Of a DNA stretch of 64,000 nucleotides, positions 1,764-31,423 are shown in pieces. The notes under the pieces were generated by a model. It did no database searches. It saw only the letters and a list, made by a program, of their open reading frames with translations, and was not told the origin of the DNA. Each line of letters starts with the position of its first letter. Positions within the stretch are counted from its first letter, which is position 1. The stretch is from NCBI RefSeq assembly GCF_058153355.1, contig NZ_CM177019.1, one strand, 5' to 3'. The position numbers and the translations under genes were made by a program.

Positions 1764-2213
1764 AATTTTAGTTTTGAGACATCTCTATGAGTCTCAAGAC
1801 AGTTAAAAAATAAAAATTATTTTTACCCGGTTACCTTGTAAAAAAGTGACTGGGTTTTTTGATTTCTGTGTTTCGTGCGCTTAATCGAGTCTCACGCTTC
1901 AGTTAGCAAATTGCCCCCCAACAGACATCACGATTCGCAAGGTCAAAAAATTCGTTCCGTGAAGTACCGTACAAAGGTATAGAGAAAAATGCCTTATGCG
2001 GGATGTTGCTGTCGCGTTTTTATCGGGAAACTAAACGTAATTGCCACTTTGTCTTCTGTAATCAGAAAAAGAAAACCTGGAATTTTAATAAATATTATTT
2101 CTCTGGGGCCGGTATTTTTATAATCAATATGACGAGTTGAATATTATATTTATTATAAGAATCATATGAGATTAAAGAAATCTGCCATAAAGACAGATTT
2201 CTTTAAAATATAA

Positions 2214-2930: not shown

Positions 2931-3271
2931 TGGAATGATCTCCTCGAAAATTTATTTACATTACTGGTAAATCGTTAACATGCGTTAATTCGGCATATTA
3001 TATCATAACAGGAAAAATCTCGTCTATTAGAAATAAAAATATTCTAAATCCATAATCTTATATTTAATCTCATAAAAACTAATGTTGTTGGCGGATTTTT
3101 TTATAATTGTATTTTGAAAGCATACTTGCTTTTAATATATGGAAATCATTAAGGCTATAATAAAACTCGTATCCGCCCCAGGAAGCAAACAGCCTGCTTT
3201 ATTGCAGGCTATTTGCTGGATGACTTACTAAATCCTTCACATCTATTCCTGATAAAAAGGAACAGAACTTA

Positions 3272-4726: not shown

Positions 4727-4827
4727 GTGTGTCTCCTGTTCCATACAATTACCGCACTTCCGATAGTATGTCACAGGAATGTGAAACAAAAGTGTAAGGC
4801 GAAGATCGGATGATCTTCGCCAGGCTA

Positions 4828-6144: not shown

Positions 6145-6449
6145 AATGATCCTGTTTGTACTGTCTTTTTATAATTAGTATGGAAAAGGTAACTCACATT
6201 GCCGTCGATCTATAAACGAACCTTATGAGACTACCGCGCCAGAGCGCTTCTGCAAATGATTTTATGGCTGATTAACGGCAACATGAAAAATTCGATGGAA
6301 GATGAAATCGCAGGAGTTGCATAAGGATTGAGCAGAGCACCTACAGTTTTGAGATATGAAACATAAAAGTCCGCATATGCACAAAATTGCACCCTGATGA
6401 TTCTGATAGACTGCATTGCATTATAACCAGTAGGGAGGCGAGGTTAGGT

Positions 6450-7520
6450 ATGTTTTTAGCATCATTGTTGAGACGTATTGCATTTAGTTACTACGATTAT
6501 AAAGCTAATAATTTCAATATTGAAAAAACAGAGTTTGTTGTCATCCATATTCCCGATCAGATTGGCGATGCTATGGCTATCTTTCCAGTGATTCGGGCGC
6601 TTGAATTGCATAAAATCAAGCATCTTTTAATAGTTACTTCGACAATTAATTTAGAAGTCTTTAATGCGCTCAAACTTGAACATACTAAATTAACATTAGT
6701 CACAATGACTATGCAGGATCACGCAACATTAAAAGAAATAAAAGATTTAGCGAAGAACATAACACAGCAATACGGTACGCCGGATCTTTGTATAGAGGCA
6801 ATGCGTAAAAAGAACCTGAAAACGATGTTATTTATCAGTCAGTTGAAAGCAAAAACAAATTTTCAGGTTGTTGGTTTAACCATGAAGTGCTACTCCCCTT
6901 TGTGTAAGAACGCCTCCCGGATGGATCAACATCTCCGGGCTCCCGTACCCATGACATGGGCGTTTATGATGCGTGAAGCGGGTTATCCGCCAGTCAGGCC
7001 AATATATGAATTACCATTAAGCGAGCAGGTAATAAATGAAGTACGTGAGGAATTGTGCACTTTAGGATCTTACATTGCGCTTAATTTAGATGGCAGCGTG
7101 CAGGAACGCACATTTTCGTTATCAGTAGCTGAGAAACTCATCGCCAAAATTCAAAGTGATAATGATATGCCAATAGTCATTGTTCATGGACCAAAAGGGG
7201 AAGATAAAGCCCGGAAATTAGCGGGTTGTTATAATAATGTCTACCGGCTATCCTTATCACCCTCGATTAAACGTTCAGCAGCAATCATAAAAGATGCTTA
7301 TATCGCAATAACCCCTGATACCTCAATATTACATATGGCAAGTGCCTATAATACCCCCGTCGTTGCAATTTATGCTGATTACAAAACGCGGTGGCCTGCG
7401 ATGGCAGATATCTCGGAGTCAGTGGTCGTTGGGCAAAAAATTGATCATATAAGTTTGGATGAATTCGGAAAGGCGCTAAAAAGTGCTTTGGAGAGAGTAT
7501 GTGTCAGTACTTACGTATAG
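6450..7520 (+). CDS. yeeL: glycosyltransferase family 9 (heptosyltransferase-like) protein YeeL, apparently intact
   Basis: ORF 6387-7520; start placed at internal ATG preceded by GGGAGG. Position between shiA and yeeJ. Confidence 0.6.
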   Translation: MFLASLLRRIAFSYYDYKANNFNIEKTEFVVIHIPDQIGDAMAIFPVIRALELHKIKHLLIVTSTINLEVFNALKLEHTKLTLVTMTMQDHATLKEIKDLAKNITQQYGTPDLCIEAMRKKNLKTMLFISQLKAKTNFQVVGLTMKCYSPLCKNASRMDQHLRAPVPMTWAFMMREAGYPPVRPIYELPLSEQVINEVREELCTLGSYIALNLDGSVQERTFSLSVAEKLIAKIQSDNDMPIVIVHGPKGEDKARKLAGCYNNVYRLSLSPSIKRSAAIIKDAYIAITPDTSILHMASAYNTPVVAIYADYKTRWPAMADISESVVVGQKIDHISLDEFGKALKSALERVCVSTYV

Positions 7521-7818
7521 AAGGTAATGCCGATCTATGCTGAACAGGGGACATTAATACCCTGAGGTTGGTCAATCACCACAAAAAAAGCCTTTGAATC
7601 AAAGCAATACTCACCGAATAATAAGGCAACCTGAACTTAAATCCCCGTTAACTGCCATACATTATTATGACTTGCACTGATGTAATTAGCTAAATATTAT
7701 CGTGATTTGACTAAATAGCAAAAATGATAGCTATCAAAAATAGCTCATATACTTTGTTTCCCGCTGCCGTAGAATAGATGGTCCTTCCATGTTTCAAGCA
7801 TTTATTCAAAAAAAAGGG

Positions 7819-7872
7819 GGCTCGACTGTCTTACGATAAACAGAGAGGGATTGTAAAGTCGAGTGCCCCTAA
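7819..7872 (-). terminator. Rho-independent terminator downstream of yeeJ
   Basis: GC-rich hairpin (GGGGCACTCGACT...AGTCGAGCCCC on the minus strand) followed by a T-run. Confidence 0.5.
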
Positions 7873-7899
7873 TGGAGCACTCTATAAAAAAATCAACAA

Positions 7900-15888
<7,989 letters not shown>

Positions 15889-16196
15889 GCTTACCTTCCC
15901 TGAACGAGCTAACATAAATGCGCCCTTTCTAGCACAGCGAAAAAATATAAATCCTGATAGCAATATGATTGAAAATTAATAACTTTTCGTTAAGCAGTTT
16001 TGGGTGTGAGTTGCAAGAGGGGAGACTACTGAATAACTCAAGTTTTATAATCGAGGGGAAAATGGTGATGGTGTCCATAGCAAAACGCCCTCAACCATAA
16101 AGATCGAGGGCGCTTAAGATGTCAAAAACCCGCTATCCGTTAAAAAGCAATGCTCAACTAAGGTCAGTGACATTGCGCTAAAAAGCGAATTTTTAG

Positions 16197-16367: not shown

Positions 16368-16748
16368 CTACGGTGCTGGTATTATAGTCTCTGCTCCAAA
16401 CCAATTTCCAAGTGTTGTCAGTGCCGCAGGTGACAAAGCTTGGGTGAAAAGGATCGCAAGGCGCTTTTGGGGTCTGGAACAAGCGACGTAAAACAAATTT
16501 CGGTTTCGTTCAAATGAGTCTTGCTTATCGACTGGAATCGTTTGGGCTCCAGCGAATTCCAACATTTCTCCGAAGTTATACTGGTTCCACCCACGCCCAA
16601 CAACAACCAGGACATTCTCAAATTCAGCACCTTTCACACCATGTTTAGTTTCGAATGGAGAATATCCATCAAGATAACGGCGAAGTGATCTGACCTCCGA
16701 ATAGGGAATATTTTTCAGCTTTTCAAGTTCTTTTAATCTTCGGGGCAT
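16368..16748 (-). CDS. UvrD/PcrA-like SF1 helicase, C-terminal segment
   Basis: Carries helicase motif V/VI-like sequences (KGAEFENVLVV, YVACSRPQKRL); same reading frame as 16794-18122, separated by a single TAA. Confidence 0.6.
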   Translation of the reverse strand: MPRRLKELEKLKNIPYSEVRSLRRYLDGYSPFETKHGVKGAEFENVLVVVGRGWNQYNFGEMLEFAGAQTIPVDKQDSFERNRNLFYVACSRPQKRLAILFTQALSPAALTTLGNWFGAETIIPAP

Positions 16749-16793
16749 TTCAACATCAGCCGTTCTGTCAAAATGGAGTAACTCCTGCTCAAA

Positions 16794-18122
16794 TTATTCA
16801 ACCTTATCTGGAAGTCTTGGCTTCCGTTGAGCACGGATGAACTCAATTACGTCGCCAATTGTACCAGTTTCGCGGAGAGCAAGAAGTTGCGTCATTACAT
16901 TGTGCCAACTCACCTTATCTGAATGTCTACGCAACAGTGGTGTAATACCGCCAAGCGCATTAAACATCTCTCCATACTTACGAGCGGTAAAGGCATCACA
17001 GGCGGGTTCCAGTTTGTCTACAAAAAAGGCTATATGTTCATGTTCCTTTTTCGTGAAGGATTCATTGTATTTAAACGCTGCCACTATATTTGAATAGCCC
17101 TGCTGATTGGCTAAAAGTCGATGGGTCAACATGAGAATTTTGGTGTGATTGGGAGAAAAGTCCCAACCATCCTGCTCCAACGTTGTTTTAACTCGTTCCA
17201 GAGTAGCCTGGCCTTCACATAATGGTAAATCACCACTCCAGTGCACGCCTTTTTGACGAACTCCTTGCCAATTGTTTGTATGGAAAACGCGTACTAAACC
17301 TGTAGCTTCGGGATCTTTAACACACTGCGGTAGCTCAGGTCTCATACGATTAAGGGCATCAACAATTATCTTGTCCGAACGAAAATTGGCTTCTTTACCT
17401 ATTTCAACCACGTCCTGATGTTCCAGCTTTCCACATCCACCACCATAGATTTTTTGCCAATGGTCGCCGAAAAAACCAAATAAAGGTGCTCTAGCTTGTC
17501 CAAGAAAATGCCGTTTAATTGCCTCAATCCAGTTTTTATCAGTGTCCTGGTACTCATCGACCAGAATGATTGGAAAGCGTTCTGCAATCACTCTACGGAA
17601 TTTTTCGTGCTCCATGAGTGAGACAGTTAAAGAAAGAACATCGTCATGATGAAGAGTTATACGATGGTCGCGAATAGAGCGATGTCCAAGATTATACTCA
17701 ACACTACGATTCCCAAGGCTTCCACCAACTTCTTCGAGCTTTTCTGTCCATGTTGGCATTGTCTCAATCAGTTCTCTCAACGGTTTTTGAAAGCTGCTTA
17801 TTAACGACCAACAGAACGCATGATTGGTATCACAAAAAACGATGGGGCTTCGATCTGTTCGCGCGACGATTTCATCCTTCGCCACGTTAGTAAAGGTGAT
17901 GCAGGCAATTTGCTGGCTACGTTTTTCAAATAAATCCTTATTTCGCTCAATCAAGAATCGAAGTGCCTTAATAAGGGAATACGTTTTACCCGCACCAGCG
18001 CCAGCTTCCAGCCGGAAGCTTCGTCCTTCACTGAGGCAAGCATACATAGATTCCAAAGCTCGCTGGCTAGCAGCTTCGGCGGGCGAATGGATCTCAGACA
18101 TCAGCGCTGGCTCCTTCTTCAA
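16794..18122 (-). CDS. UvrD/PcrA-like SF1 helicase, N-terminal segment
   Basis: Walker A GAGAGKTY, motif II ILVDEYQDT, motif III-like FFGDHWQKIY; start overlaps the upstream OLD-family gene by 29 nt. Confidence 0.7.
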   Translation of the reverse strand: MKKEPALMSEIHSPAEAASQRALESMYACLSEGRSFRLEAGAGAGKTYSLIKALRFLIERNKDLFEKRSQQIACITFTNVAKDEIVARTDRSPIVFCDTNHAFCWSLISSFQKPLRELIETMPTWTEKLEEVGGSLGNRSVEYNLGHRSIRDHRITLHHDDVLSLTVSLMEHEKFRRVIAERFPIILVDEYQDTDKNWIEAIKRHFLGQARAPLFGFFGDHWQKIYGGGCGKLEHQDVVEIGKEANFRSDKIIVDALNRMRPELPQCVKDPEATGLVRVFHTNNWQGVRQKGVHWSGDLPLCEGQATLERVKTTLEQDGWDFSPNHTKILMLTHRLLANQQGYSNIVAAFKYNESFTKKEHEHIAFFVDKLEPACDAFTARKYGEMFNALGGITPLLRRHSDKVSWHNVMTQLLALRETGTIGDVIEFIRAQRKPRLPDKVE

Positions 18123-20166
18123 TACTAGTTGTGGCTTCTACAACTTGCGCCAATACTGGATCTTGTGTCATAAGCTCATTGCTGCCAGCTAACCAGCGGA
18201 TTCCATCGACTATGTATTTGGGGGCGTTCCATTCTGTCTCTGTAATCGCGTATTTCAATGCAAATTCTGATTTTTTCCACTCAGACGCTTTATCACGGGC
18301 TTCTATTTCCAGTTCCTGAGAATTTCTCCCTACCAGCCCGAATAAAGCCGAATTTGCAAGGATAAATGCATCTTCGAATGTGCGTCCGCAGGGGCCATCT
18401 GTCACTTCTGCACATTGATAGGCAATACGATTTCCATTACGAGCTTTATCATCGTCACTCCTGGCAATCAAACCAGCTAATGTGAAAGGGGTATCTTCAG
18501 AGAACCATGCTTTCAAACAAGCATTACTGGAATATGTACCAAGATGAACAGCACATGCCTGACCTCCTGCTCTTTGGACTGCGTCCAGATCTGTTATGAT
18601 CAGACTCTGAAGCTCAAGAAACGCTAATAACTCGAAGAACAAATGAGCGTAAGCACCGCCGACTTCCATCACCGTTGCGTACTGGCTCGACAGCTTCGGT
18701 CTCTCTGGTTCGGCTGATTCTAGTTTTTTGATGATGACGGGAAGCAATAATCGCTCGCTTAACCCCTCGACGAGAATCGCTTTATCTGCGAAAAACAGAT
18801 CACAACGTGTCAACGTCATGTATTGATGAAGGAATTTTTTATCTTCAATTAGAATATGATTCAGCCCTTTACGCAGATCTTTAATTTTGGTTTTTCGGAC
18901 ACCTTCCTGAGTCCCCTGTGCTGGAGCCCCCAGAAAATAGCGAATACTCTCGAAACCAGCCGCATTGGCAATGTGAGACGAGTGTGTAGACACGACAAAT
19001 TGTACAGGCCAGGGTCTCCTGTCCTCAGTGCCATCCACCAGTTGTTGTGCAATTTTGGCAAGTTGACGAATAAAAACCTCCTGCATTTGTGGATGCAGAT
19101 GGGCTTCTGGTTCTTCAATGAATATCAGGTGTACACCCGGCTCAGTAACTTCAGCACAAAATGCTTTATAGAAACCAGCTAATTGCAAGAGAATAAATAT
19201 CAGATTACGTGTACCAAGACCGTTATATGACTCCGGTAATGCGATTCCGCTATAACCTGAATAGCGAACTTTCGTGAAGTTTGATAGCAACTTGCTAACA
19301 TCGAGCAATGTTTCAGTATGTAACTCCTGTCCTCCCAATCCTGGGTATCCAAAAGTTTCTAGAGCCGGAATCAGACTGTTGAGCTGGTTTCCGAAGTTTG
19401 TGTCAATTTGAGTCTGAATGTCCTGAACTGCACCTTTCAATGCATCAGCAATTTGTTTATCAGCAGCTCCCGCAGATGCCGAAGAGGCTGTTGCGAAAAG
19501 ATTTTCAACCGTTTTAGCCAGTACATCGGATTCTCGGGACGTCACATCATCAAGTCCTCGCTGAGCGTTGATAAAGCCCGATTTGACCAGACCGCGCAAT
19601 GCACTAGGTGGTAACTCGCGACGATTATCAGGATCGTTGGGATCTTCAGCCCATATTTTCACACAGAAATTATTAGGGATACGTTCTCGCAATATACGGA
19701 GGAAAGCGAGGCGGTCTTCTCTAGAAAGTGGCATTTCAGTCTGACTTTCGAGAAATTGTGTCAGATGGCCATCTTTCAATTCGTATCGGACTACTACCTG
19801 CGCTTCAGAACACGCGGGATCCAAATCGATAACAAAGGGACTCAATGGACCTAATTGAGGTTGTGCAGGGTCGTACTGGAATTTCAGTCGAAGTTCAATG
19901 GCGGGAATAAGTTCTCGAACGAGATGATCTTCCATGCCTTCCTTAAGTGCTTCCAGAACATCACAAAAACGGTCGTAGCAGGAACTGGAAAAGTCTTCAA
20001 GTTGGAAAGTAGCACTACCATCTGCTAAGAATCTGCGTATTATTTCTGAGAGTGATGTTTTTCCGCTGTTGTTTCGTCCAACAATGACGGTCGTCTGTTC
20101 CTCCAATACAAGCTCTGCATCAGCTAAAAGACGGAAGTTTTTAATTTCGACCTGATGAATGTGCAT
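18094..20166 (-). CDS. OLD-family ATP-dependent endonuclease (ABC ATPase plus TOPRIM), GajA-like
   Basis: 690 aa; Walker A GRNNSGKTS, Walker B/D-loop LIFIEEPEAHLHP, H-loop STHSSH, TOPRIM-like AILVEGLSE and ITDLD. Confidence 0.7.
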   Translation of the reverse strand: MHIHQVEIKNFRLLADAELVLEEQTTVIVGRNNSGKTSLSEIIRRFLADGSATFQLEDFSSSCYDRFCDVLEALKEGMEDHLVRELIPAIELRLKFQYDPAQPQLGPLSPFVIDLDPACSEAQVVVRYELKDGHLTQFLESQTEMPLSREDRLAFLRILRERIPNNFCVKIWAEDPNDPDNRRELPPSALRGLVKSGFINAQRGLDDVTSRESDVLAKTVENLFATASSASAGAADKQIADALKGAVQDIQTQIDTNFGNQLNSLIPALETFGYPGLGGQELHTETLLDVSKLLSNFTKVRYSGYSGIALPESYNGLGTRNLIFILLQLAGFYKAFCAEVTEPGVHLIFIEEPEAHLHPQMQEVFIRQLAKIAQQLVDGTEDRRPWPVQFVVSTHSSHIANAAGFESIRYFLGAPAQGTQEGVRKTKIKDLRKGLNHILIEDKKFLHQYMTLTRCDLFFADKAILVEGLSERLLLPVIIKKLESAEPERPKLSSQYATVMEVGGAYAHLFFELLAFLELQSLIITDLDAVQRAGGQACAVHLGTYSSNACLKAWFSEDTPFTLAGLIARSDDDKARNGNRIAYQCAEVTDGPCGRTFEDAFILANSALFGLVGRNSQELEIEARDKASEWKKSEFALKYAITETEWNAPKYIVDGIRWLAGSNELMTQDPVLAQVVEATTSIEEGASADV

Positions 20167-20303: not shown

Positions 20304-21824
20304 TCACTCGGTCAAAGAGGCCTCACGAACATCATCCGGTTGAGGTTGGCACTCTTTCCATCGTCGAATAAGCGTTGCTACACAGGGATTACCCGCCAGT
20401 TGATTCATTCTGACCCAGTCAACATCCACTAATCCAGCCAGAAGTTCAGGATTTAGTTCCCCTTGTAATGGGTGCCACTGGCGAATACTGGGCTGGCGCT
20501 GAATTTGAGGTTGAAGGGGAGCCAAACTCCCGACGATAACGTAATTTTGTTCTGGATCATGCCAGAGTCGTGTAATGCCAGGTATGTTTTTCAACCAGTT
20601 TCGAGGATCACCTAAAGGTAAATCAAAAACACGAGAGAGTAATTTATTCCATGACGCTATTAATGACGAACTGGCTTTCTTTGCCAATTTTTTCTCACCT
20701 GCCAGGAGTGCATTTTTTCTTTCTGGCCATTTGGAAAAAATATAACTTTTTAAAATATCGTAGGTAACATTAAGTTCATTATTGTAATAATACTCACGCA
20801 AAGCACAATTCCACAACTCGCACAGCAAGTCTAGTTCACGCATGAGTGTATTTTTATTGGTATCTGATAATTCACCTTCCTCATTAAGTTGCGCTATATA
20901 AAAAGACAGTATCTTTGTATCTGGTAAGAGCCAGTGGTTTAGTGAGAACTGCTGACTTTGAGTATCAAGAACAGTCATTAATGCATCTAAATTCTCAGGG
21001 ATCATATTAGGGGTGTCGTATTTCGGATCCTGAAGAAGAATGGATATTTCTTCCATTCTATGAATAATTATTGTCAATCTCTGAGCAAATCTGGTTAATT
21101 TATCTTCACTGCTGCCAAAACCTTGCGCTATTGATTCAGGCCGATAAGTATAAGGCCATTTTTTATTTAAGAGAGTAAGAAGAGCCTCGACAGAGGTATC
21201 AAACAGTTTCAGCCTTTCATCGCAGGCTTTAACTAAATCCGGGCAAGAAGGATTAAAAGGTAAAATTACTGGGCGGTCTTGTTCAGCGGTGAATAAATAT
21301 CCTTCGGTGATAACCAATAGGTCATGAGTCAGTAAGTCTTTCTGTTCTGTCAGGCTTGTACTGATTCTTGTTTCTTTGCAAAGTAAAAGATGCTTCAACG
21401 CAAGTTCTTTGTACGCAACTTCGGTATTACGCGCCAATGCATCAAGACAGGTCTTTTTCTCAAGATCTTGAATGGCATAGTCGTAATAGCAAGAATCTAT
21501 CGCAGGGATGAGTCGGGTAGTCCCATCGGGAGTATCCTGCTCAATCAATAAATTATCAACAACAGAATCACCACTAAGATCAAACGGATTAACGTTGATA
21601 TGCTGGCACGCAATTTTAGTTCTTAGATTCTGAGTTAACGGATAGCGGTCATCAATTATACCACGGATCTGATCTAACAAAACAAGTATGCATATAGAGC
21701 TGTCTTTTTCCAATTTTTCAAATGATGAGGGTTCTGAATCCGGTAATAATTCCAGCTGTACATCAGGATACTTTTTGTTCAACACCTTTTGTATCTGCGC
21801 ACTTCCCCGTGAAACCCGGGTCAT
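20304..21824 (-). CDS. hypothetical protein, no recognisable motif; 5' end lies in IS66-derived sequence
   Basis: Long ORF (track 20304-22004); only in-frame Met codons are inside the IS66 tnpC remnant, so the native N-terminus is probably lost. Confidence 0.4.
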
Positions 21825-22843
21825 CCAACCGGAAGAAGAATGCTGCCCGGCCTGTGGTGGCGGGCTCAGTCCTCTGGGATGTGATGTGTCAGAACAACTG
21901 GAGCTTATCAGCAGCGCCTTTAAGGTTATCGAAACACAACGTCCGAAACTGGCCTGTTGCCGGTGCGACCATATCGTGCAGGCTCCGGTGCCTTCAAAAC
22001 CCATTGCACGCAGTTATGCCGGAGCGGGGCTTCTGGCCCATGTTGTCGCTGGAAAATATGCAGACCATCTGCCGTTATACCGCCAGTCAGAAATATACCG
22101 TCGTCAGGGCGTGGAGCTGAGCCGTGCCACACTGGGGCGCTGGACAGGTGCTGTTGCTGAACTGCTGGAACCGCTGTATGACATCCTGCGCCAGTATGTG
22201 CTGATGCCCGGTAAAGTCCATGCCGATGATATCCCCGTTCCGGTCCAGGAGCCGGGCAGCGGTAAAACAAGGACTGCCCGGCTGTGGGTCTACGTTCGTG
22301 ATGACCGTAACGCCGGTTCGGAAATGCCTCCGGCGGTCTGGTTCGCGTACAGCCCGGACCGGAAAGGTATCCATCCACAGAATCATCTGGCCGGTTACAG
22401 CGGAGTGCTTCAGGCCGATGCTTACGGTGGTTACCGGGCGTTGTACGAATCCGGCAGAATAACGGAAGCCGCATGTATGGCTCATGCCCGGAGAAAAATC
22501 CACGATGTGCATGCAAGAGTGCCCACCGACATCACCACGGAAGCCCTGCAGCGTATCGGTGAACTGTATGCCATCGAGGCAGAGGTCCGGGGCTGTTCAG
22601 CAGAACAGCGTCTGGCGGCAAGAAAAGCCAGAGCCGCGCCACTGATGCAGTCACTGTATGACTGGATACAGCAACAGATGAAAACACTGTCGCGTCACTC
22701 GGACACGGCAAAAGCGTTCGCATACCTGCTGAAACAGTGGGATGCACTGAACGTGTACTGCAGTAATGGCTGGGTGGAAATCGACAACAACATCGCAGAG
22801 AACGCCTTACGGGGAGTGGCCGTAGGCCGGAAAAACTGGCTCT

Positions 22844-24667
22844 GTGTGTCACGAAGGAGTACTTATGGCAACAATGTGAAAATTGCAGCATAAGTTATCC
22901 ATGCTCTGAGGTGGGTGGAGGTGGGCCCTCCGGTCAGGGTTTACAGGAGCACTGACCAAACGACCCGGTGCTGCTTCATTCTAAGGAATGAGGTGGTGAG
23001 CGACTCGGGAAAAGGCAGAGATCTACTGTCACGTGGGGTTCGGGAAGCTGAACGAAAGTAAACTGTCCGATGAAGCATCGAAATCTTAGATGATGTCAAA
23101 ATGGGGCCGTACAGCCGTCCCCTGATAAGCGCAGAAGACACCTGCTTACTGACTGCGCGGCATCCGGTGTGAAGGCAGCAGGATCCCGGGCCAGACCATC
23201 TCAGGGAACGTGAGAACCTGTTTCCGGCACGTATCGGGAAACAGGGGCGGACCCATTCGTAGTAGTGATGAAAGATCTGTAATGGGTCTGGAGCGAAGGG
23301 ATGGGGATCACATTCATTGCAGAAGACACAACCCAAAAGGGGATGACGTAACTGATGCAACGAAAATCATTTGAAATACCAAAAGCACTGGTCTGGGCAT
23401 CATATCTGGATGTGCGTCGCAACAAGGGAGCCCCCGGATGCGACGGGCAGACTTTGAAAATGTTCGACCAGCAACGTGATGGCAATCTATACAAGATCTG
23501 GAACCGGCTATGTTCGGGAACATGGTTTCCGCCACCAGTGCTGGAAAAACGGATCCCGAAGTCGAATGGCAAGGAACGCATTCTGGGGATCCCAACAGTA
23601 TCCGATCGAATTGCTCAGGGAGCGATAAAACTTTTCATGGAAGAAAAGCTTGACCCGATTTTCCATGCTGATTCATATGGTTACCGACCAGGCAAATCAG
23701 CTCATGACGCTCTGAAACAATGTGCCATCCGGTGCTGGCGTTATAGCTGGATACTGGAAGTGGACATCAGTGCGTTTTTCGACCATGTGAGACATGATCT
23801 GGTGCTCAAAGCTCTGGAACACCACGGGATGCCTAAATGGGTCATCCTGTACTGTCGACGCTGGATGGAAGCGCCAATGCAGAGTTGTGAAAATGGAGAA
23901 TTAATAACCCGAACACGAGGCACTCCGCAGGGCGGGGTCATTAGTCCACTACTTGCTAACTTGTTCCTTCACTATGCATTTGATTTGTGGATGGAAAGAG
24001 AATATCGGGGGGTACCGTTTGAGAGGTACGCTGACGATATTGTAGTACATTGTTCACGAATGAGTGATGCAACAAGGCTGAAGAACAGGTTATCGGAGCG
24101 CTTCTCGGAAGTCGGGCTGGTCCTGAATGCAGGGAAAACGAATATCGCCTACATTGACACGTTTAAAAGGAGAAACGTCGCAACGAGTTTCACCTTTCTC
24201 GGATATGACTTCAAAGTGCGTACGCTGAAGAATTTCAAAGGCGAACTGTACCGAAAATGCATGCCGGGTGCGTCAAATGCAGCAATGCGCAAAATAACAG
24301 AAACAATCAAGAAGTGGCGTATACATCGCTCAACAGCTGAGAGTTTGCTGGATTTTGCGAGGCGCTACAATGCGATAGTGAGAGGCTGGATCGAGTACTA
24401 CGGAAAGTTCTGGTCCAGAAATTTCAACTATCGACTGTGGAGTGCAATGCAGTCACGTCTGCTCAAGTGGATGCAGTCTAAATACAGACTTTCGAACCGG
24501 AAGGCTCAGCGAAAGCTGACGCTGGTAAGGAAGGAGTATCCGAAGCTATTTGTTCACTGGTATTTACTACGTGCATCAAATGAGTGATCAAGAGCCGTAT
24601 GACGCGAGAGTGTCACGTACGGTTCCGTGAGCAGCCGGGGAGTGAAATTCTCTCCGGCTGACTCGAC
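22844..24667 (+). mobile_element. group II intron (~1.8 kb) with intron-encoded reverse transcriptase
   Basis: 5' GTGTG start; domain V-like GAGCCGTATGACGCGAGAGTGTCACGTACGGTTC near 3' end; joining the flanks restores the TnpC frame (KNWL-FAGSDSGG). Confidence 0.7.
23355..24587 (+). CDS. group II intron reverse transcriptase/maturase
   Basis: 410 aa with RT motifs including YADD and a C-terminal maturase-like region. Confidence 0.8.
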   Translation: MQRKSFEIPKALVWASYLDVRRNKGAPGCDGQTLKMFDQQRDGNLYKIWNRLCSGTWFPPPVLEKRIPKSNGKERILGIPTVSDRIAQGAIKLFMEEKLDPIFHADSYGYRPGKSAHDALKQCAIRCWRYSWILEVDISAFFDHVRHDLVLKALEHHGMPKWVILYCRRWMEAPMQSCENGELITRTRGTPQGGVISPLLANLFLHYAFDLWMEREYRGVPFERYADDIVVHCSRMSDATRLKNRLSERFSEVGLVLNAGKTNIAYIDTFKRRNVATSFTFLGYDFKVRTLKNFKGELYRKCMPGASNAAMRKITETIKKWRIHRSTAESLLDFARRYNAIVRGWIEYYGKFWSRNFNYRLWSAMQSRLLKWMQSKYRLSNRKAQRKLTLVRKEYPKLFVHWYLLRASNE

Positions 24668-24852
24668 TCGCAGGTTCCGACAGCGGTGGCGAACATGCGG
24701 CGGTGTTGTACTCGCTGATCGGCACATGCCGTCTGAACAATGTGGGGCCAGAAAAATGGCTGCGTTACGTCATTGAGCATATCCAGGACTGGCCGGCAAA
24801 CCGGGTACGCGATCTGTTGCCCTGGAAAGTTGATCTGAGCTCTCAGTAAATA

Positions 24853-26796
24853 TCAATACGGTTCTGGCGAGCCGCTTACGTTTAATCGGGAAATCTCATA
24901 TTTTCGGTTCATCATTAATGGCAGAAGGAAGCGTTGATGCTGTTGACGAGAAATTTCACCAGCACGGAGCAGTTTTTCTAGGTTGCGTAACTGGAAACCC
25001 GCATGCGCCATATCATCATTGTTCTCTGTATTGGCCTGAAAAGCGGAAAAGTAATAATGCCGTGATTCCAGCAAATATAAACAGGTCAGATCCATATTTT
25101 TGCCAGATTCAGGCAGGCTGAAATCCAGATTCACACCATTCGTCGCAGAGGCGGTCTGAGTCAGCACAATGACAATACGCCGGGAGGCAAATGCGGCCTG
25201 ATAAGCATCACTAAAGCCCTTTTTCTTCTGACATTCTGCGGTTAACAGACAAATCAGCGCAGGCTCATTATGTATGCTCACTGGGATAAACACATCAGCA
25301 AAATTTTTTAGTAGAGGATCATCAGATAAAGGTTGTTCCATTTTTAACCATGCGAGGTATTCTCTACTTTGTGTTGCTATTGTAGTGGTAAGCCATTTTC
25401 TTAAATAGGCTATGGAATTCACGAAAGCAAGATGCCCCCGGTGTTGAGGTCTTTTTCCCGCAAGATCCAATACATTAAGCAATTTTAGCAGTATATTTTT
25501 TCGATATTCTGATTCGAAATCTGATGAGGGGTCATCGCCATTCTGGAAAAAATCGGGGGCTAGCGAAGCGAGCAGATCAACACAATGCGGGTTATTCTTT
25601 ATGCTATTGAAATCTTGAATCTCAGCATTCAGTTGTGTGTTTCTGATATTTTCTTTGCTGTTATTGATCTCTTCAATAGCTAAATACTGCAACTGGAAAT
25701 CATCAGCCGTCTGGACATAAGGTATCGGTTCTTTAAACCACTCGACAGGTCGTTTTTCAAAAGTTGTTCCCAGAAAACTTTGTGTAACAGCAGGGTTGCG
25801 TGCTTCTGCAATATAACGAAGAGCTGAATTAATCCACCGGACATCGAAGTGATTACAGGCTCTTTCAATATATGACGTAGCCGACAGTGCAAAGACAAGA
25901 TTACGACTGGCGAGAGAAAGCAGCAGACCTTCTGCCGTCGTGGGCAGAAAGGCACGTTTGATCTGTATCCGTAACGGATCGATATCCGTATCTGAGACAT
26001 TCTGTTTCAGCAACCAATTGGTCAAGCCAAAAATACTGGCATGAGTATTTGGCAAAATATTACTTTTCCTTAATTCCCGTAGTTCCGGCAGGTCAGTACG
26101 CGGTAACAAAAATCGGGACATATTGGGCAGGGTTGAGCCGTAGTATGAAGGCCTGTAATCATTAACGGGGTCGAACAGAAGTCGGGTTAACTTTTTAATG
26201 TATTCATACGCTTCATCTTCACTTGCAGTCAGGTCGGTCAACATTAGGCTAAACTGTCGAATGAATTTTTCCATCAAGCGTAAAAAATCACTGATGTCGA
26301 TAGTCTGATCGCTATCCTGAAGCGGAGAGTCTGGCCTGATAATTTCGTATCCATGTTCCGCTTTCCGCATAATAAGCCGTTCACTGGTCACCAGTTGATC
26401 GGAACGGAATAAATAATGCTCACCAAAGGGTTTATTATCCAGATATTGCTGAAGAGGAATAACCAGCGATCTGGCATGTGTTAAATCAGCATGTTTTTCT
26501 GTTAATGCACTATCCAGATCATTAATAAATTTTTCTAGACGTTCACGGATCATAGGTGCAGGTTCCATTTCAACATACTGCATACGTTGTAGTAATCTGC
26601 GTCCCCCGTCGAGCAACTGACCCAGACACTCAGGTGGTTCCTGAACCCATTGCGCCTGTGCCAGATACTCTTGTAATACCTCAGACTGGTAATCAAATTC
26701 ATCGATGAAAATGATGTAATTACGCAGCTCTTTGCTGGACATTTTTACTTTGCGACGCCCATCGTAAAACGATGAAACCATCTTTTGAGTCGTCAT
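24853..26796 (-). CDS. hypothetical large protein, downstream part of a split P-loop NTPase; Walker-B-like IIFIDEFD near N-terminus
   Basis: 647-aa ORF; stop codon lies inside the IS66 terminal repeat; starts 2 nt after the stop of 26799-27572 in another frame. Confidence 0.45.
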   Translation of the reverse strand: MTTQKMVSSFYDGRRKVKMSSKELRNYIIFIDEFDYQSEVLQEYLAQAQWVQEPPECLGQLLDGGRRLLQRMQYVEMEPAPMIRERLEKFINDLDSALTEKHADLTHARSLVIPLQQYLDNKPFGEHYLFRSDQLVTSERLIMRKAEHGYEIIRPDSPLQDSDQTIDISDFLRLMEKFIRQFSLMLTDLTASEDEAYEYIKKLTRLLFDPVNDYRPSYYGSTLPNMSRFLLPRTDLPELRELRKSNILPNTHASIFGLTNWLLKQNVSDTDIDPLRIQIKRAFLPTTAEGLLLSLASRNLVFALSATSYIERACNHFDVRWINSALRYIAEARNPAVTQSFLGTTFEKRPVEWFKEPIPYVQTADDFQLQYLAIEEINNSKENIRNTQLNAEIQDFNSIKNNPHCVDLLASLAPDFFQNGDDPSSDFESEYRKNILLKLLNVLDLAGKRPQHRGHLAFVNSIAYLRKWLTTTIATQSREYLAWLKMEQPLSDDPLLKNFADVFIPVSIHNEPALICLLTAECQKKKGFSDAYQAAFASRRIVIVLTQTASATNGVNLDFSLPESGKNMDLTCLYLLESRHYYFSAFQANTENNDDMAHAGFQLRNLEKLLRAGEISRQQHQRFLLPLMMNRKYEISRLNVSGSPEPY

Positions 26797-26798
26797 GA

Positions 26799-27572
26799 TC
26801 AGCAGGTGTTGCTTTTCGTCACGCCAGGCAATGGCGGGCAGAATGCGCCTGACCCAGACGTGGCGACGGAAATCTGCAACTCGTTGCCTGGCTTGGCTGC
26901 CTGCGTGAGTTCATGTTCTTCGCCATATTTTTCTTTTTGTTTCTTGGCTTCTTTTTCCAGCAATTTGATATTCTGAATCAGAGTTATCTCCACCGCTGCG
27001 CATGATTTGATTAATGACTCTTTCTCACTGGCGATGGCCGTCTGAAAACGCGTCGGATATCCTTTCAGCGATTTGTTAATATGCAGTATGTTTTTGCAAT
27101 TTCTACGCAATTTGTCGGCGATATCCTGAATGGCAAACAAATTTCTGTCTTCCAGGATATTGATGGAGTCAAATGGATCGGGAAGTGAGTCTGCGGAAAT
27201 ATTATTCTCATGAGGCAAGGGGGTGGCCTCGATGGCAGAAACGATCTGTTCATCTTGTGCATAGAGCACGCTGACGGTGAATGGTTCCCCGTTACTGTCT
27301 TTATGCGCTGCCGTTTTCTCATAAATGTCGTGCAAAATATTCCAGCGATGGGTAACCAGAATGGCTTGAGAGCCTGATTTTTTTATCGTCTCCAGCGCCG
27401 GGAGAGCGTTATCGGCATAGCCAGAGCGGTAGAGTGAGCTGGTTTTTCCGCTACCCGTAGGCCCCTGAAGCTGACAAAATCCTGCGATACGACGGGATGT
27501 TTTGGATTTTTTTGCCTGAGAAAGGGTGTATTCAATAACGGCATTGTAGGAACGTATTAAAGGGGCACTCAC
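26799..27572 (-). CDS. P-loop NTPase N-terminal segment (Walker A GPTGSGKTS)
   Basis: 257-aa ORF with Walker A near residue 40; low-complexity C-terminal tail suggests a frameshift into the next ORF. Confidence 0.45.
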   Translation of the reverse strand: MSAPLIRSYNAVIEYTLSQAKKSKTSRRIAGFCQLQGPTGSGKTSSLYRSGYADNALPALETIKKSGSQAILVTHRWNILHDIYEKTAAHKDSNGEPFTVSVLYAQDEQIVSAIEATPLPHENNISADSLPDPFDSINILEDRNLFAIQDIADKLRRNCKNILHINKSLKGYPTRFQTAIASEKESLIKSCAAVEITLIQNIKLLEKEAKKQKEKYGEEHELTQAAKPGNELQISVATSGSGAFCPPLPGVTKSNTC

Positions 27573-27885
27573 ATTTCACCTCATCCGTGTCAGGTTATCG
27601 AAGAGTAGAATTTCAGCAAATTCATGTTACACCGAACGGGTATCATTTCAATGTTTAATAATAATTTCCCCTTATAAAACAACGCTTATAATACATTCGC
27701 AGGTCAGATGATTTATCGGTGTGTTATTTGTTTGAATTTGGTGTTGTGGTTTTCTTTTTTTAACAATCTTCGATCTTCCTTCCACGACTTCCCCTTGCCG
27801 TTTTCAACCGAAAGCGGTATCTTTCACTTGCACCTGCAAAATCAGGTGCCGGGATTGGAACCCCGAAATGTAACCATACTGGCGA

Positions 27886-27910
27886 CACGTGACGCGTCTG
27901 CGTCTTTTTT
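27886..27910 (+). terminator. hairpin plus T-run (GACGCGTCTGCGTC-TTTTTTT)
   Basis: Short GC stem followed by seven T on the plus strand. Confidence 0.35.
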
Positions 27911-28075
27911 TATGTCGCGCGCTTAGCTACACCAAAATTATGGTGGGCTGGGCGGGGGCACCGTAAGGTGCGCCGGTTCCAGTATGGCCGGTAGTTCCAA
28001 CCTCGTTCAGTCCACCACCCATGAGATTGGAACCTCTGGTGGTGGTTTTCAAACCACATACTGGAGGCTGCCTTT

Positions 28076-29093: not shown

Positions 29094-29351
29094 ATGTATA
29101 CAACTCGCCTGAAAAAGGTCGGCGGATCCATCATGCTGGCGGTTCCCCCCGCCGTGCTGAAAACGCTGGAGCTGTCGACGGACAGCGAAGTGGGTATGAC
29201 CATTGATAATGGCTGCCTGATTATTGAACCCCAGAAACGGCCCCGTTATTCGCTTGAGGAGCTGTTGGCGCAGTGCGATCCGCACGCAGAAATGAGCGAA
29301 GAGGATCGGGAATGGATTGATGCGCCTGCGGTGGGCAAGGAGATCCTGTAA
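29094..29351 (+). CDS. pemI: PemI/MazE-family antitoxin
   Basis: MYTTRLKKVGGSIMLAVPPAVLK...YSLEELLAQCDP closely resembles plasmid R100 PemI; start at internal Met of ORF 28920-29351. Confidence 0.8.
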   Translation: MYTTRLKKVGGSIMLAVPPAVLKTLELSTDSEVGMTIDNGCLIIEPQKRPRYSLEELLAQCDPHAEMSEEDREWIDAPAVGKEIL

Positions 29352-29684
29352 ATGGACAGAGGGGAAATCTGGCTGGTTTCACTGGATCCGATTGCAGGTC
29401 ACGAGCAAAGCGGAAAACGTCCGGTGCTTATCGTATCGAAGGCATCGTTTAACAAGCTGACCCGGCTACCCGTTGTTGTTCCCGTTACCAGCGGTGGAAA
29501 CTTCGCCCGTGCAGCCGGTTTTACCGTCTCACTGGACGGTGCGGGAACAAAAACAACGGGCGTTATTCGCTGCGACCAGCCCAGAACCATTGATATGGGA
29601 GCCCGGAGCGGAAAGCGACTGGAACGTATACCCGATGCTGTCGTGAATGAAGTGCTGGCCCGACTGGAGGCCATTCTGAGCTGA
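29352..29684 (+). CDS. pemK: PemK/MazF-family toxin
   Basis: MDRGEIWLVSLDPIAGHEQSGKRPVLIVS...LPVVVPVTSGGNFARAAGF closely resembles PemK. Confidence 0.85.
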   Translation: MDRGEIWLVSLDPIAGHEQSGKRPVLIVSKASFNKLTRLPVVVPVTSGGNFARAAGFTVSLDGAGTKTTGVIRCDQPRTIDMGARSGKRLERIPDAVVNEVLARLEAILS

Positions 29685-30250: not shown

Positions 30251-30535
30251 GCTGGAGTCTGACACCGCCTTTTCAGGCCATTTACCTATAAGGAGAACAT
30301 GAATCGATACCGAGGCGGATCCGGACGATCCGGGGGATAACCCGCGCAAGCGGGCGGCTGCTCAGAGAGCACAACCGAAGCCCCACCACACCTCAACGGC
30401 TGCCGCCCCGGCGCTCAGGTATCGTTCGCAGCCCCGACAAAAAAACAGGGGCTATCGGCCTGTGCGCCGGGGAAAGCTGTATCAGTGTTGGTTTTTTGGG
30501 GGATGAGTTTGCGGCAATCATGAAAAGGGGAATGT

Positions 30536-31423
30536 ATGGGGATACTGGAGCAGGAAATGACGCGACTGGCGCAGCAGGCGGGTGGCAGCTACAAAACTGT
30601 GGATGACCGCATCAGGCTGGCGCAGCGGTTTTGTGAGCGTCTGGTTCTGGCGCAGAACGTACAAATCCGCCGGGTGGAGCAGCTTAAGGCGCGGCATATT
30701 GAAGGCTATGTTCGTGAACGGCTGGCGCAGGGCATCACAAAGCGTTCCCTGCAAAATGAGATGGCGGCGGTGCGCTGCATTCTGAAACAGGCCGGGCGTG
30801 ACAGGCTGGCGCAGAGTGAGCGGCTGAATAACCGCTCGCTGGGATTGTCCGGAGCATCCCGTAACGGGACGAAGCTGGCTATTACACTGGAGCACTATCG
30901 TGATGTGCTGGAGACCGCCCGCGTAAAAGATCCGGGGCTGGCGGCAGCGCTGGAGCTCTCAAGGTTGATGGGATTACGTTCGCAGGAGGCGGTGCAGAGT
31001 GTACAGTCGCTGAAAACGTGGATACAGGCGCTGGAGCGTGGTGAGTCCCGGTTAACCGTGGTGTTCGGCACCAAAGGCGGACGGCCCCGCGAGACGATTA
31101 TTCTTGATGCTGGCGTAGTTAAAAAAGCGCTGGATAATGCGCTGGTGGTGGCTGAGGATCGTCACGGCAGGCTGATAGATAAGCCCGATCTGAGAAGCGC
31201 GATGAAATACTGGCACAGCCAGGCGTCGGGTCTTGGTTTAACTGGCGCATATTCCCCGCACTCGTTGCGCTATGCCTGGGCGCAGGATGCTATTCGTCAT
31301 TATCTGGCGCAGGGATTTTGTGAGAAGGAAGCGCTGGCGATGACGGCGATGGATTTGGGTCACGGCGACGGGCGCGGGCGGTATGTGGCGCAGGTTTACG
31401 GGCGAAAGGGGGATGCTGATTGA
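30536..31423 (+). CDS. small tyrosine recombinase/integrase-family protein
   Basis: 295 aa; C-terminal HSLRYAWAQ box and candidate nucleophile in GRGRYVAQVYG; LAQ-rich N-terminal domain. Confidence 0.5.
   Translation: MGILEQEMTRLAQQAGGSYKTVDDRIRLAQRFCERLVLAQNVQIRRVEQLKARHIEGYVRERLAQGITKRSLQNEMAAVRCILKQAGRDRLAQSERLNNRSLGLSGASRNGTKLAITLEHYRDVLETARVKDPGLAAALELSRLMGLRSQEAVQSVQSLKTWIQALERGESRLTVVFGTKGGRPRETIILDAGVVKKALDNALVVAEDRHGRLIDKPDLRSAMKYWHSQASGLGLTGAYSPHSLRYAWAQDAIRHYLAQGFCEKEALAMTAMDLGHGDGRGRYVAQVYGRKGDAD

What the first reader, a model, noticed from the sequence alone, without database searches (positions are those of the whole stretch)
24853..27572. P-loop NTPase split across two ORFs, with its 3' end running into the IS66 terminal repeat
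Walker A (GPTGSGKTS) is in the 257-aa ORF and a Walker-B-like IIFIDEFD opens the 647-aa ORF in another frame 2 nt later, consistent with one ~900-aa gene carrying a frameshift. The last codons and stop of the 647-aa ORF fall in IS66-derived sequence, so the native C-terminus may be missing.
Basis: partly seen in the sequence, partly recalled or inferred. Interest (0 to 1): 0.7.

Follow-up and report, generated by a model that had tools for sequence, protein, structure and literature searches.

The report
Dead DdmD-like anti-plasmid helicase gene
The two ORFs are the broken front two-thirds of one 1,300-aa helicase-nuclease gene of a DdmDE-type (Argonaute-guided) anti-plasmid system. A 5-bp duplication and an IS66-associated deletion destroyed it, so the window holds an ordinary pseudogene, though of a gene family no annotation pipeline currently names.

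Summary
ORFs 27572..26799 (257 aa, Walker A) and 26796..24853 (647 aa, DEFD) are one gene. A 5-bp tandem duplication (AGCCA, 26898-26889) breaks the frame. At 24879 the sequence runs into an IS66 right end, which supplies the last 8 codons and the stop.

The intact gene is 1,300 aa, not about 900 aa (E. coli LF82 WP_001275764.1; about 70 homologue clusters, nearly all about 1,300 aa). The window lacks residues 897-1300, which hold helicase motif VI and all five PD-(D/E)xK nuclease residues. The same deletion removed the first 321 of 818 codons of the downstream partner gene.

The cassette is therefore a DdmDE-like anti-plasmid pair from a clade listed only as "Unclassified" in the ApsAB paper. 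Pfam, NCBIfam and PADLOC do not detect it. In Enterobacterales it sits next to Gabija. In this window it is dead, and gajB also carries a nonsense codon.

Verdict: a real feature and an ordinary pseudogene, from a new member of a known kind.

The parts
26799..27572 (-). ORF A (257 aa). Residues 1 to about 226 are the native N-terminus of the DdmD-like helicase-nuclease, with Walker A G37-S45. The last roughly 31 residues (KPGNEL...SNTC) are an out-of-frame tail created by the duplication.
   Evidence: Walker A invariant in the family
26889..26898 (-). The frameshift lesion. This is the tandem duplication AGCCA-AGCCA; LF82 and all 24 other E. coli copies have a single AGCCA.
   Evidence: alignment; every near-identical hit spans 2,817 nt or fewer of record for 2,822 nt of query; repair restores an 896-codon frame
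24880..26796 (-). Native part of ORF B, equal to residues 258-896 of the 1,300-aa protein. It holds DEFD (motif II, D289/E290), SAT (motif III, 562-564) and TQTASATNG(V/I)NLD (motif V region, 802-815). Helicase motif VI and the nuclease lie beyond the truncation point.
24853..24879 (-). IS66 right terminal repeat read through by ORF B. It supplies the 8 foreign codons VSGSPEPY and the TGA stop.
   Evidence: IS66 tnpC matches
21800..24879 (+). 5'-truncated IS66-family element (no left end, tnpA, tnpB or 5' end of tnpC) whose tnpC is interrupted by a group II intron (about 22900-24670; RT ORF 23355-24587). It replaces about 2,177 bp of the ancestral locus.
20304..21799 (-). Remnant of the DdmE-like (Argonaute-fold) partner gene, residues 322-818 of 818. 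The N-terminal 321 codons, the start codon and the operon linkage are deleted. The listed 566-aa ORF (to 22004) begins in IS66 sequence.
   Evidence: fold assignment
18094..20166 (-). gajA (Gabija OLD-family ATPase-nuclease), intact. It is the neighbour of the cassette in Enterobacterales.
   Evidence: PADLOC GajA E=3e-290; 9 aa differences from LF82
16368..18101 (-). gajB (UvrD-like helicase) with a premature stop, K436* (AAA to TAA at 16796-16794).

Best explanation
The finding is the decayed 5' two-thirds of a single gene for a DdmD-like helicase-nuclease. That protein is the effector of a two-gene, Argonaute-guided anti-plasmid system of the DdmDE/ApsAB superfamily.

Shown: in intact relatives (E. 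coli LF82 and others) a 1,300-aa protein is followed 3 nt later by an 818-aa protein. The 1,300-aa protein combines an XPD/DinG-like SF2 helicase core with a C-terminal PD-(D/E)xK nuclease. The 818-aa protein has the DdmE (long-C prokaryotic Argonaute) fold.

Inferred by analogy with DdmDE: the Argonaute-like partner, loaded with a short 5'-phosphorylated DNA guide, binds plasmid DNA and opens a D-loop. It then recruits and releases the auto-inhibited helicase-nuclease onto the displaced strand. The helicase-nuclease translocates 5' to 3' on ATP and degrades the plasmid.

Shown: the window copy cannot do this, because three lesions are present. (1) A 5-bp tandem duplication splits the helicase after about residue 226, separating Walker A from motif II. 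(2) An IS66-family element carrying a group II intron inserted after codon 896. (3) A deletion removed the left part of that IS, the last 404 codons of the helicase-nuclease (motif VI and all five nuclease residues), and the first 321 codons of the partner. That a single event caused this last deletion is inferred.

The adjacent Gabija system is also hit, by gajB K436*. The locus is a defence-island cassette in decay, not a split or novel NTPase.
For: One gene, not two: intact 1,300-aa CDS in LF82 and SC418. About 70 homologue clusters are nearly all 1,280-1,330 aa. The 5-bp duplication is absent from all 25 E. coli copies, and repair gives an open 896-codon frame.

Truncation and deletion: BLAST and MAFFT against LF82. 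IS66 plus intron identity.

DdmD relationship: the family profile hits V. cholerae DdmD at E=4e-21 and L. casei DdmD at E=1e-8. Motif II, SAT, motif VI and the nuclease motifs are aligned. The five DdmD nuclease residues essential for plasmid elimination (E1059, E1082, D1085, D1100, K1102; bioRxiv 10.1101/2024.05.10.593530) align to invariant E1144, E1170, D1173, D1184, K1186. The AF2 model of the repaired 896-aa product (pLDDT 83) has DdmD as its top 21 PDB hits (E=1e-20 to 2e-10), followed by DinG/XPD at about 1e-6.

The two-gene module is conserved in 9 loci from E. coli to cyanobacteria and Spirochaeta.

Published context: an Oceanisphaera member of this family and its partner are listed as 'Unclassified' in the ApsA/DdmD superfamily table of PMC11096173.
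Against: No function has been tested for any member of this clade, so anti-plasmid activity is inferred by homology only.

The partner is about 130 aa longer than DdmE and only 11-13% identical to it. TM-scores are moderate (0.5-0.63). Absence of the DEDX tetrad was not checked. The guide-pocket correspondence (Y373/Q386/E452/K456 to DdmE Y363/Q376/E401/K405) rests on identical spacing, invariance and a sub-threshold alignment.

PADLOC gave no DdmD or DdmE hit; I do not know whether that release holds such models.

The order of the three lesions, and whether the deletion was IS-mediated, are inferred.

The window was not re-sequenced, so the 5-bp duplication is taken at face value.
Confidence: 0.88

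Rival explanations
1. The two ORFs are naturally separate genes: a split NTPase whose Walker A and Walker B subunits assemble in trans.
For: Only the ORF layout itself, with a stop and an ATG 2 nt apart, which resembles translational coupling.
Against: All full-length homologues are single proteins of about 1,300 aa. The split is caused by a 5-bp duplication unique to this sequence among 25 E. coli copies. 31 native residues (227-257), including invariant R241, P244 and W248, fall in neither ORF. The C-terminal 404 residues are deleted.
Confidence: 0.02
2. The frame break is bypassed, by programmed -1 frameshifting or because it is a sequencing error, so a single protein is still made and active.
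For: ORF B's frame is open upstream of its ATG and overlaps ORF A by about 100 nt, the geometry that recoding would need.
Against: No canonical slippery heptamer is visible in the overlap on reading the sequence. Intact relatives need no recoding. Even a perfectly repaired product ends at residue 896. It would lack motif VI and the nuclease residues that are essential in DdmD. Its partner gene is also beheaded.
Confidence: 0.03
3. The cassette belongs to the ApsAB branch rather than the DdmDE branch of the superfamily.
For: ApsAB occurs in E. coli genomic islands and has the same architecture (PMC11096173). hhalign of the family profile against ApsA aligns motif VI through the nuclease D-x-K at E=0.0033.
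Against: The HMMER score against ApsA is 7.5 bits (not significant), compared with 77.7 bits for DdmD. The partner shows no similarity to ApsB and lacks the ApsB motif Y-x3-K...QG: the family has Y373-PLT-x and Q386-H387. The partner's fold and sequence match DdmE instead. The paper itself leaves this clade 'Unclassified'.
Confidence: 0.04
4. The helicase-nuclease and Argonaute-like genes are accessory parts of an extended four-gene Gabija-type system and do not form an independent module.
For: gajA starts about 130 bp after the partner's stop in E. coli LF82, SC418 (82% nt identity) and Serratia. A cyanobacterial locus has an AAA_15/AAA_21 ATPase fragment in the same position.
Against: Vibrio, Rheinheimera, Photorhabdus and Spirochaeta loci carry the pair without Gabija. 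The cyanobacterial fragment resembles GajA only around the P-loop (E=4e-4 over 42 aa). Gabija and DdmDE are each self-sufficient two-gene systems in published work.
Confidence: 0.05

Closest known systems
DdmDE plasmid-defence system (Vibrio cholerae VPI-2; Lactobacillus casei): DdmD helicase-nuclease plus DdmE long-C pAgo
   Same: Two-gene operon in the same order. The effector has an XPD/DinG-like SF2 helicase core with Walker A Lys, DExx, SAT and motif VI, plus a C-terminal PD-(D/E)xK nuclease in which all five catalytic residues are conserved. The partner has the DdmE fold, with Tyr/Gln/Glu/Lys at DdmE-like spacing in the MID region.
   Different: Sequence identity is only about 11-16%. 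The effector is 1,300 aa against about 1,190 aa, and the partner 818 aa against about 690 aa. Single-sequence searches, Pfam, NCBIfam and PADLOC do not detect it. No experimental data exist for this clade. In Enterobacterales it is linked to Gabija. In this window the effector is frameshifted and truncated and the partner has lost its N-terminal 321 residues.
ApsAB antiplasmid system of E. coli ST38 (Zongo et al. 2024, PMC11096173)
   Same: Same superfamily and logic: an SF2 helicase/PD-(D/E)xK nuclease followed by an Argonaute-like protein. It lies in E. coli genomic islands beside other defence systems, and complete and partially deleted copies are both reported. The motif VI to nuclease region is alignable.
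   Different: ApsA is 1,571 aa with a 180-aa N-terminal extension, and the profile score is not significant (7.5 bits). ApsB (743 aa) shows no detectable similarity to the partner, and its MID motif Y-x3-K...QG is not present. The paper's table labels a member of the present clade 'Unclassified'.
Gabija (GajA/GajB)
   Same: Immediate downstream neighbour in the same orientation. It too is a nuclease plus helicase defence pair.
   Different: The families are unrelated: OLD-type ATPase-TOPRIM and UvrD-like SF1 helicase. The pair studied here occurs without Gabija in four other genera.

Membership tests
DdmD-type helicase-nuclease | Significant sequence similarity to experimentally characterised DdmD | tested here: met
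   A profile of 24 family members hits V. cholerae DdmD (9bf1/9ezx) at E=4e-21 and 77.7 bits, in two stretches covering 251-601 and 785-1210. It hits L. casei DdmD at E=1e-8. Single-sequence phmmer found nothing.
DdmD-type helicase-nuclease | XPD/DinG-like SF2 helicase core with Walker A Lys, DExx, motif III and motif VI | tested here: met
   In the intact family, G37xTGxGK43, D289-E290, S562-A563-T564 and Q914QxxGRxER922 are invariant or nearly so. The model of the repaired window product matches DdmD in its top 21 hits (E=1e-20 to 2e-10), then DinG/XPD. In the window itself, Walker A and DExx lie in different ORFs and motif VI is deleted.
DdmD-type helicase-nuclease | C-terminal PD-(D/E)xK nuclease with the five catalytic residues (DdmD E1059, E1082, D1085, D1100, K1102) | tested here: met
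   Intact homologues have invariant E1144, E1170, D1173, D1184 and K1186, aligned to those residues. This is not met by the window copy, because everything after residue 896 is replaced by IS66.
DdmD-type helicase-nuclease | Encoded directly upstream of a catalytically inactive long-C pAgo (DdmE) | tested here: met
   A partner of about 770-830 aa follows within 0-40 nt in 9 loci from 7 genera. Its fold is that of DdmE.
DdmD-type helicase-nuclease | Auto-inhibited dimer, DdmE-triggered loading, 5'-3' translocation, plasmid elimination in vivo | not testable with these tools
   Requires biochemistry and genetics. The features are described for DdmDE in bioRxiv 10.1101/2024.05.10.593530.
DdmE / long-C prokaryotic Argonaute | Argonaute architecture (N, L1, L2, MID, PIWI) closest to DdmE | tested here: met
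DdmE / long-C prokaryotic Argonaute | Detectable sequence homology to DdmE | tested here: met
   The narrow profile gave no hit. A profile widened with distant relatives hits L. casei DdmE at E=1.5e-8 and V. cholerae DdmE at E=0.01, at the C-terminal end of PIWI. The bridging protein P0167 hits the family profile at 5e-20 and DdmE at 1e-5.
DdmE / long-C prokaryotic Argonaute | MID pocket for the 5'-phosphorylated guide end (DdmE Y363, Q376, E401, K405) | tested here: inconclusive
   Y373, Q386, E452 and K456 are invariant in the 28-member family. Y373, Q386 and K456 are among only 7 invariant columns in the widened family. The Y-to-Q (13) and E-to-K (4) spacings equal those of DdmE. A sub-threshold HMMER stretch pairs Y373/Q386 with Y363/Q376. 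A MID-only profile gave no PDB hit, and no residue-level structural superposition was available.
DdmE / long-C prokaryotic Argonaute | No DEDX catalytic tetrad in PIWI; C-APAZ domain in place of PAZ; PIWI insertion | not tested
   Needs a residue-level structural alignment, which the tools do not return.
ApsAB | ApsA-like sequence (motifs GFGKS, DELH, SAT, QAVGRVER, D...DVK) with significant similarity | tested here: inconclusive
   Full-length ApsA was recovered from strain SCU-316. HMMER gives 7.5 bits, E=6. hhalign gives E=0.0033 over motif VI to the nuclease only. The motifs are analogous, but this is superfamily-level similarity only.
ApsAB | ApsB-type partner with MID motif Y-x3-K ... 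QG ... K | tested here: not met
   hhalign of the partner profile against ApsB gives E=0.25 and probability 0.2%. The partner family has Y373-P-L-T-x (no Lys at +4) and Q386-H387 (not QG). The motif definition comes from PMC11096173.
IS66 family insertion sequence | Terminal inverted repeat beginning GTAAGCG and a tnpC transposase; a full element also has tnpA, tnpB and a left repeat | tested here: met
   The right end, GTAAGCGGCTCG..., lies at 24879. tnpC matches thousands of E. coli IS66 copies. The left repeat, tnpA, tnpB and the 5' end of tnpC are absent, so this is a truncated remnant. That GTAAGCG is the family's typical terminus is from my own knowledge.

The most novel reading that the evidence does not exclude
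The LF82-type pair is a functionally distinct third branch of the DdmDE/ApsAB superfamily. Its larger (818-aa) Argonaute-like sensor would give it different guide or target rules. In Enterobacterales it would be inherited, and perhaps work, as one four-gene unit with Gabija, for example with GajAB acting on the DNA ends or nicks made by the helicase-nuclease. The repeated independent decay seen here would then reflect selection against the whole unit when useful plasmids arrive. The examples are this window (three lesions), strain A13 and strain SC418.
Probability: 0.1. Interest if true: 0.65.

Novelty: new member of a known kind. Interest (0 to 1): 0.33.

Why it matters
For this window the result is housekeeping. 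The two 'hypothetical' ORFs and the 566-aa ORF downstream should be annotated as pseudogene fragments of a DdmDE-like cassette disrupted by IS66, not as an unusual split NTPase.

The wider value lies in the intact relatives. A DdmDE-type, Argonaute-guided anti-plasmid system is present in 25 of 5,426 complete E. coli genomes, including the Crohn's-associated reference strain LF82. It also occurs in Serratia, Klebsiella, Photorhabdus, Vibrio, cyanobacteria and a spirochaete.

Pfam, NCBIfam and PADLOC miss it completely, and every source calls it 'hypothetical protein'. The only published trace I found is one 'Unclassified' row in a supplementary table.

Systems of this kind shape which plasmids, including resistance plasmids, a lineage can keep. 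A named, testable third clade, and evidence that it is repeatedly inactivated in the wild, is useful to people who study plasmid ecology and defence islands.

Tried and rejected
- Direct family scans of the two ORFs and of the full-length LF82 proteins against PADLOC, NCBIfam and Pfam gave nothing usable. The hits were a ComGA/PilB P-loop at E of about 0.003-0.1, AAA_11 and DEAD at E above 0.003, and PbeC at 0.096.
- Single-sequence phmmer against PDB gave nothing for either protein.
- The narrow partner profile against PDB returned only a spurious copper-chaperone hit. A MID-segment-only profile returned only a spurious hit.
- I looked for the LF82 accessions and organism names in the ApsAB paper's supplements and found none. 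A sequence-word search did find the Oceanisphaera member.
- Recovering full-length ApsA by protein search returned only fragments. I got it through DNA instead.
- P0187 and P0184, tried as bridges to DdmE, gave no hit.
- My first GajB translation was off by one base, and an apparent 1-nt gap was an alignment-edge artefact. Both were corrected.
- Considered and rejected: ABC/SMC or STAND NTPase (the fold is SF2, XPD-like); natural two-gene split; programmed frameshift; membership of ApsAB; the cassette being part of Gabija; coverage of this locus by the P4-satellite hotspot paper (PMC9122126), which mentions LF82 only as a phage name.
Full report
OBSERVATION

On the minus strand, the ORF listing gives a 257-aa ORF at 27572..26799 (GTG start) containing GPTGSGKTS, and a 647-aa ORF at 26796..24853 containing IIFIDEFD. 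The first ORF's TGA and the second's ATG are 2 nt apart. Translating all three frames shows that the second ORF's frame is open for about 40 codons upstream of its ATG and reads like real protein (...FRRHVWVRRILPAIAWRDEKQHLLIMTTQ...). That already pointed to a frame break some 100 nt upstream of the ORF boundary.

THE INTACT GENE AND THE LESIONS

A megablast of 27700..24700 against 5,426 complete E. coli genomes found 25 genomes with the region. 24 of them are 98.8-99.0% identical. In every case the match stops at query position 2821-2822 (window 24879-24880), where thousands of IS66 tnpC matches take over.

In LF82 the region is one 1,300-aa CDS (WP_001275764.1). It is followed 3 nt later by an 818-aa CDS (WP_000982354.1) and then by GajA and GajB. 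The whole set lies in an island next to tRNA-Asn. A diverged copy in strain SC418 (82% nt identity) has the same four-gene order.

Alignment of the window to LF82 shows 29 substitutions and a single indel. The indel is five extra bases that make AGCCA into AGCCAAGCCA at window 26898-26889. Every E. coli hit spans five (or, in strain A13, six) fewer bases of record than of query, so none has the duplication. Deleting the five bases restores an uninterrupted 896-codon frame with 10 amino-acid differences from LF82, from 15 synonymous and 10 non-synonymous codon changes.

Homology ends at 24879/24878, exactly where GTAAGCGGCTCGCC... begins. That 26-nt end occurs once in the window, with none expected by chance. 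Its first 27 nt supply the codons VSGSPEPY and the stop.

Window 24879..21800 is an IS66-family remnant on the plus strand. It lacks the left end, tnpA, tnpB and the 5' part of tnpC. Its tnpC is interrupted by a group II intron: Rfam D1-D4 at 22917-23033, domain V/VI at 24590-24667, and an RT ORF at 23355-24587. The same tnpC::intron module is 97% identical in E. coli 536.

LF82 homology resumes at window 21799, which is codon 322 of the 818-aa gene. About 2,177 bp of the ancestral locus are therefore gone: 404 codons of the first gene and 321 codons of the second. The 566-aa ORF listed at 22004..20304 is a chimera that starts in IS66 sequence.

The simplest history is IS66 insertion after codon 896, followed by one deletion running from inside the IS across the gene boundary. 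That order is inferred, not shown.

WHAT THE GENE IS

Pfam, NCBIfam, PADLOC and single-sequence PDB searches were all uninformative for the fragments and for the full-length LF82 proteins.

A homologue search returned about 70 clusters. Nearly all are 1,280-1,330 aa and all are 'hypothetical'. They come from Enterobacterales, Vibrio, Rheinheimera, Photorhabdus, cyanobacteria and a spirochaete. This refutes the two-gene alternative.

In 24 sequences down to 33% identity, these columns are invariant:
- Walker A: G37, T39, G40, G42, K43, S45
- Motif II: D289, E290
- Motif III: S562, A563
- Motif VI: Q914, Q915, G918, R919, E921, R922
- Nuclease: E1144, E1170, D1173, D1184, A1185, K1186

The profile hits V. 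cholerae DdmD at E=4e-21 (77.7 bits) and L. casei DdmD at E=1e-8. The alignment pairs IFIDEFDYQ with LIIDEIDKQ, LSATS with ISATA, QQQVGRIER with EQAVGRAGR, GRLGEE with GALGEQ, ELYDF with ERFDN, and VDAKYW with LDSKYW.

Those nuclease positions are the five DdmD residues whose alanine substitutions abolish plasmid elimination (E1059, E1082, D1085, D1100, K1102). DdmD K55 is the Walker A lysine (bioRxiv 10.1101/2024.05.10.593530).

An AlphaFold2 model of the repaired 896-aa window product (pLDDT 83, pTM 0.80) was searched against PDB. It returned DdmD chains as the top 21 hits (E=1e-20 to 2e-10, TMq 0.53-0.58 for full-length chains), followed by DinG and XPD/TFIIH helicases at 1e-6 to 1e-3. This matches the published description of DdmD as an XPD/DinG-like 5'-3' SF2 helicase.

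THE PARTNER

The 818-aa protein has about 66 homologue clusters and only 63 hits among 1.84 billion representatives. It has no Pfam family, and its narrow profile gives no PDB hit.

Sequence evidence followed. P0167 matches the partner profile at 5e-20 and L. casei DdmE at 1e-5. A profile widened with such distant relatives hits L. casei DdmE at 1.5e-8 and V. cholerae DdmE at 0.01.

In the 28-member family Y373, Q386, E452 and K456 are invariant. In the widened family only seven columns remain invariant, and three of them are Y373, Q386 and K456. DdmE holds the guide's 5' end with Y363, Q376, E401 and K405, and the Y-to-Q and E-to-K spacings are identical. A sub-threshold HMMER stretch pairs Y373/Q386 with Y363/Q376. 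I treat that pocket correspondence as likely but not proven.

RELATION TO ApsAB AND TO GABIJA

Zongo et al. [quoted passage not shown] Their Supplementary Data 8 contains Oceanisphaera profunda WP_087038521.1 (1,295 aa...GIFVTHRWNIL...VIFIDEFEYQ...) with a 769-aa partner. Both are plainly of the present family and both are labelled 'Unclassified'. The LF82 accessions are not listed there.

I recovered full-length ApsA (1,571 aa) and ApsB (743 aa) from strain SCU-316. The family HMM scores ApsA at 7.5 bits, which is not significant. hhalign aligns only motif VI through the nuclease at E=0.0033. The partner profile does not match ApsB, and the ApsB motif Y-x3-K...QG is absent. The clade is therefore nearer DdmDE.

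The two-gene module is conserved in all nine loci inspected. GajA/GajB follows it in E. coli and Serratia only. A cyanobacterial ATPase fragment in the same position resembles GajA only at the P-loop. I read Gabija as a defence-island neighbour, not as a component.

STATE OF THE WINDOW COPY

- Walker A and motif II are in different ORFs.
- Native residues 227-257 (with invariant R241, P244, W248) are in neither ORF.
- Motif VI and the entire nuclease are deleted.
- The partner lacks its N-terminal 321 residues, including the start of the MID-like domain, and has no native start codon.

A recoding bypass would not rescue it. In addition, gajB carries K436* (AAA to TAA, 16796-16794), while gajA is intact.

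Independent damage exists elsewhere. Strain A13 has the 1,300-aa gene annotated as two CDS, and SC418 has gajA and gajB each split. This fits the report that apsAB is readily inactivated when plasmids are selected. A causal link here is speculation.

VERDICT

The feature itself is an ordinary pseudogene.

What is worth keeping is the identification of its intact family. It is an unannotated DdmDE-like anti-plasmid clade, present in E. coli LF82 among others, and so a new member of a known kind.

Function and mechanism are inferred by homology to DdmDE, and nothing in this clade has been tested.

Noticed in passing
window 16368-18101 (-), stop at 16794-16796: gajB, the Gabija UvrD-like helicase, has a premature stop (K436*, AAA to TAA) relative to the 577-aa LF82 protein. 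gajA (18094-20166) is intact. Both defence systems in this island are therefore disabled.
   Followed up: yes
window 22900-24670 (+); RT ORF 23355-24587: A group II intron (Rfam D1-D4 at 22917-23033, domain V/VI at 24590-24667) sits inside the IS66 tnpC remnant. The same tnpC::intron module is 97% identical in E. coli 536 and about 20 other complete genomes.
   Followed up: partly
window 27830-28022 (+): isrK (27830-27910) and a C4/CI-type antisense RNA (27936-28022) lie about 260 bp upstream of the gene and are divergently oriented. These are elements of a P4-like immunity region. In LF82 and SC418 an ISEc1 is inserted at the site matching window 27853-27864, inside isrK. The 12 bp there match both BLAST pieces, as a target duplication would. 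The window has the empty site.
   Followed up: partly
window 30299-30428 (+): Full-length EFASI sRNA match (119 bits), between the toxin-antitoxin pair and an integrase-domain gene (30536-31423).
   Followed up: no
window 29100-29684 (+): An AbrB/MazE-type antitoxin and a PemK/MazF-type toxin (29352-29684). LF82 and Serratia have the same pair upstream of the cassette.
   Followed up: no
window 1-16000: The chromosomal backbone (yeeO, amn, shiA, a 2,687-aa Ig-like adhesin at 7900-15963) is only 90-95% identical to most E. coli genomes and 98% to a few (for example 2013C-4282). This suggests a divergent Escherichia lineage. No complete genome in the collection has this exact IS66 junction.
   Followed up: partly
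L003 6129-10030 (E. coli A13); L002 15612-18641 (E. coli SC418): Independent decay of the same island in other strains. In A13 the 1,300-aa gene is annotated as two CDS, and its match is one base shorter than in the other close copies. In SC418 gajA and gajB are each split into two CDS.
   Followed up: partly
L004 15626-17129 (cyanobacterium J06581_3): Directly downstream of the cyanobacterial pair lies a 138-aa AAA_15/AAA_21 ATPase fragment cut by a DDE transposase. It resembles GajA only around the P-loop (E=4e-4), so it is unclear whether an OLD/ABC-type ATPase recurs next to this module.
   Followed up: partly
L012 2147-14944 (E. coli SCU-316): The ApsAB operon (1,571 aa and 743 aa) sits directly after a three-gene cluster (TerB N-terminal domain protein, ATP-binding protein, DEAD/DEAH helicase) and an AbiEii-family toxin gene, the Shango and AbiE neighbours the ApsAB paper describes. 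An apsA probe matches 147 of 5,426 E. coli genomes, against 25 for the LF82-type cassette.
   Followed up: no
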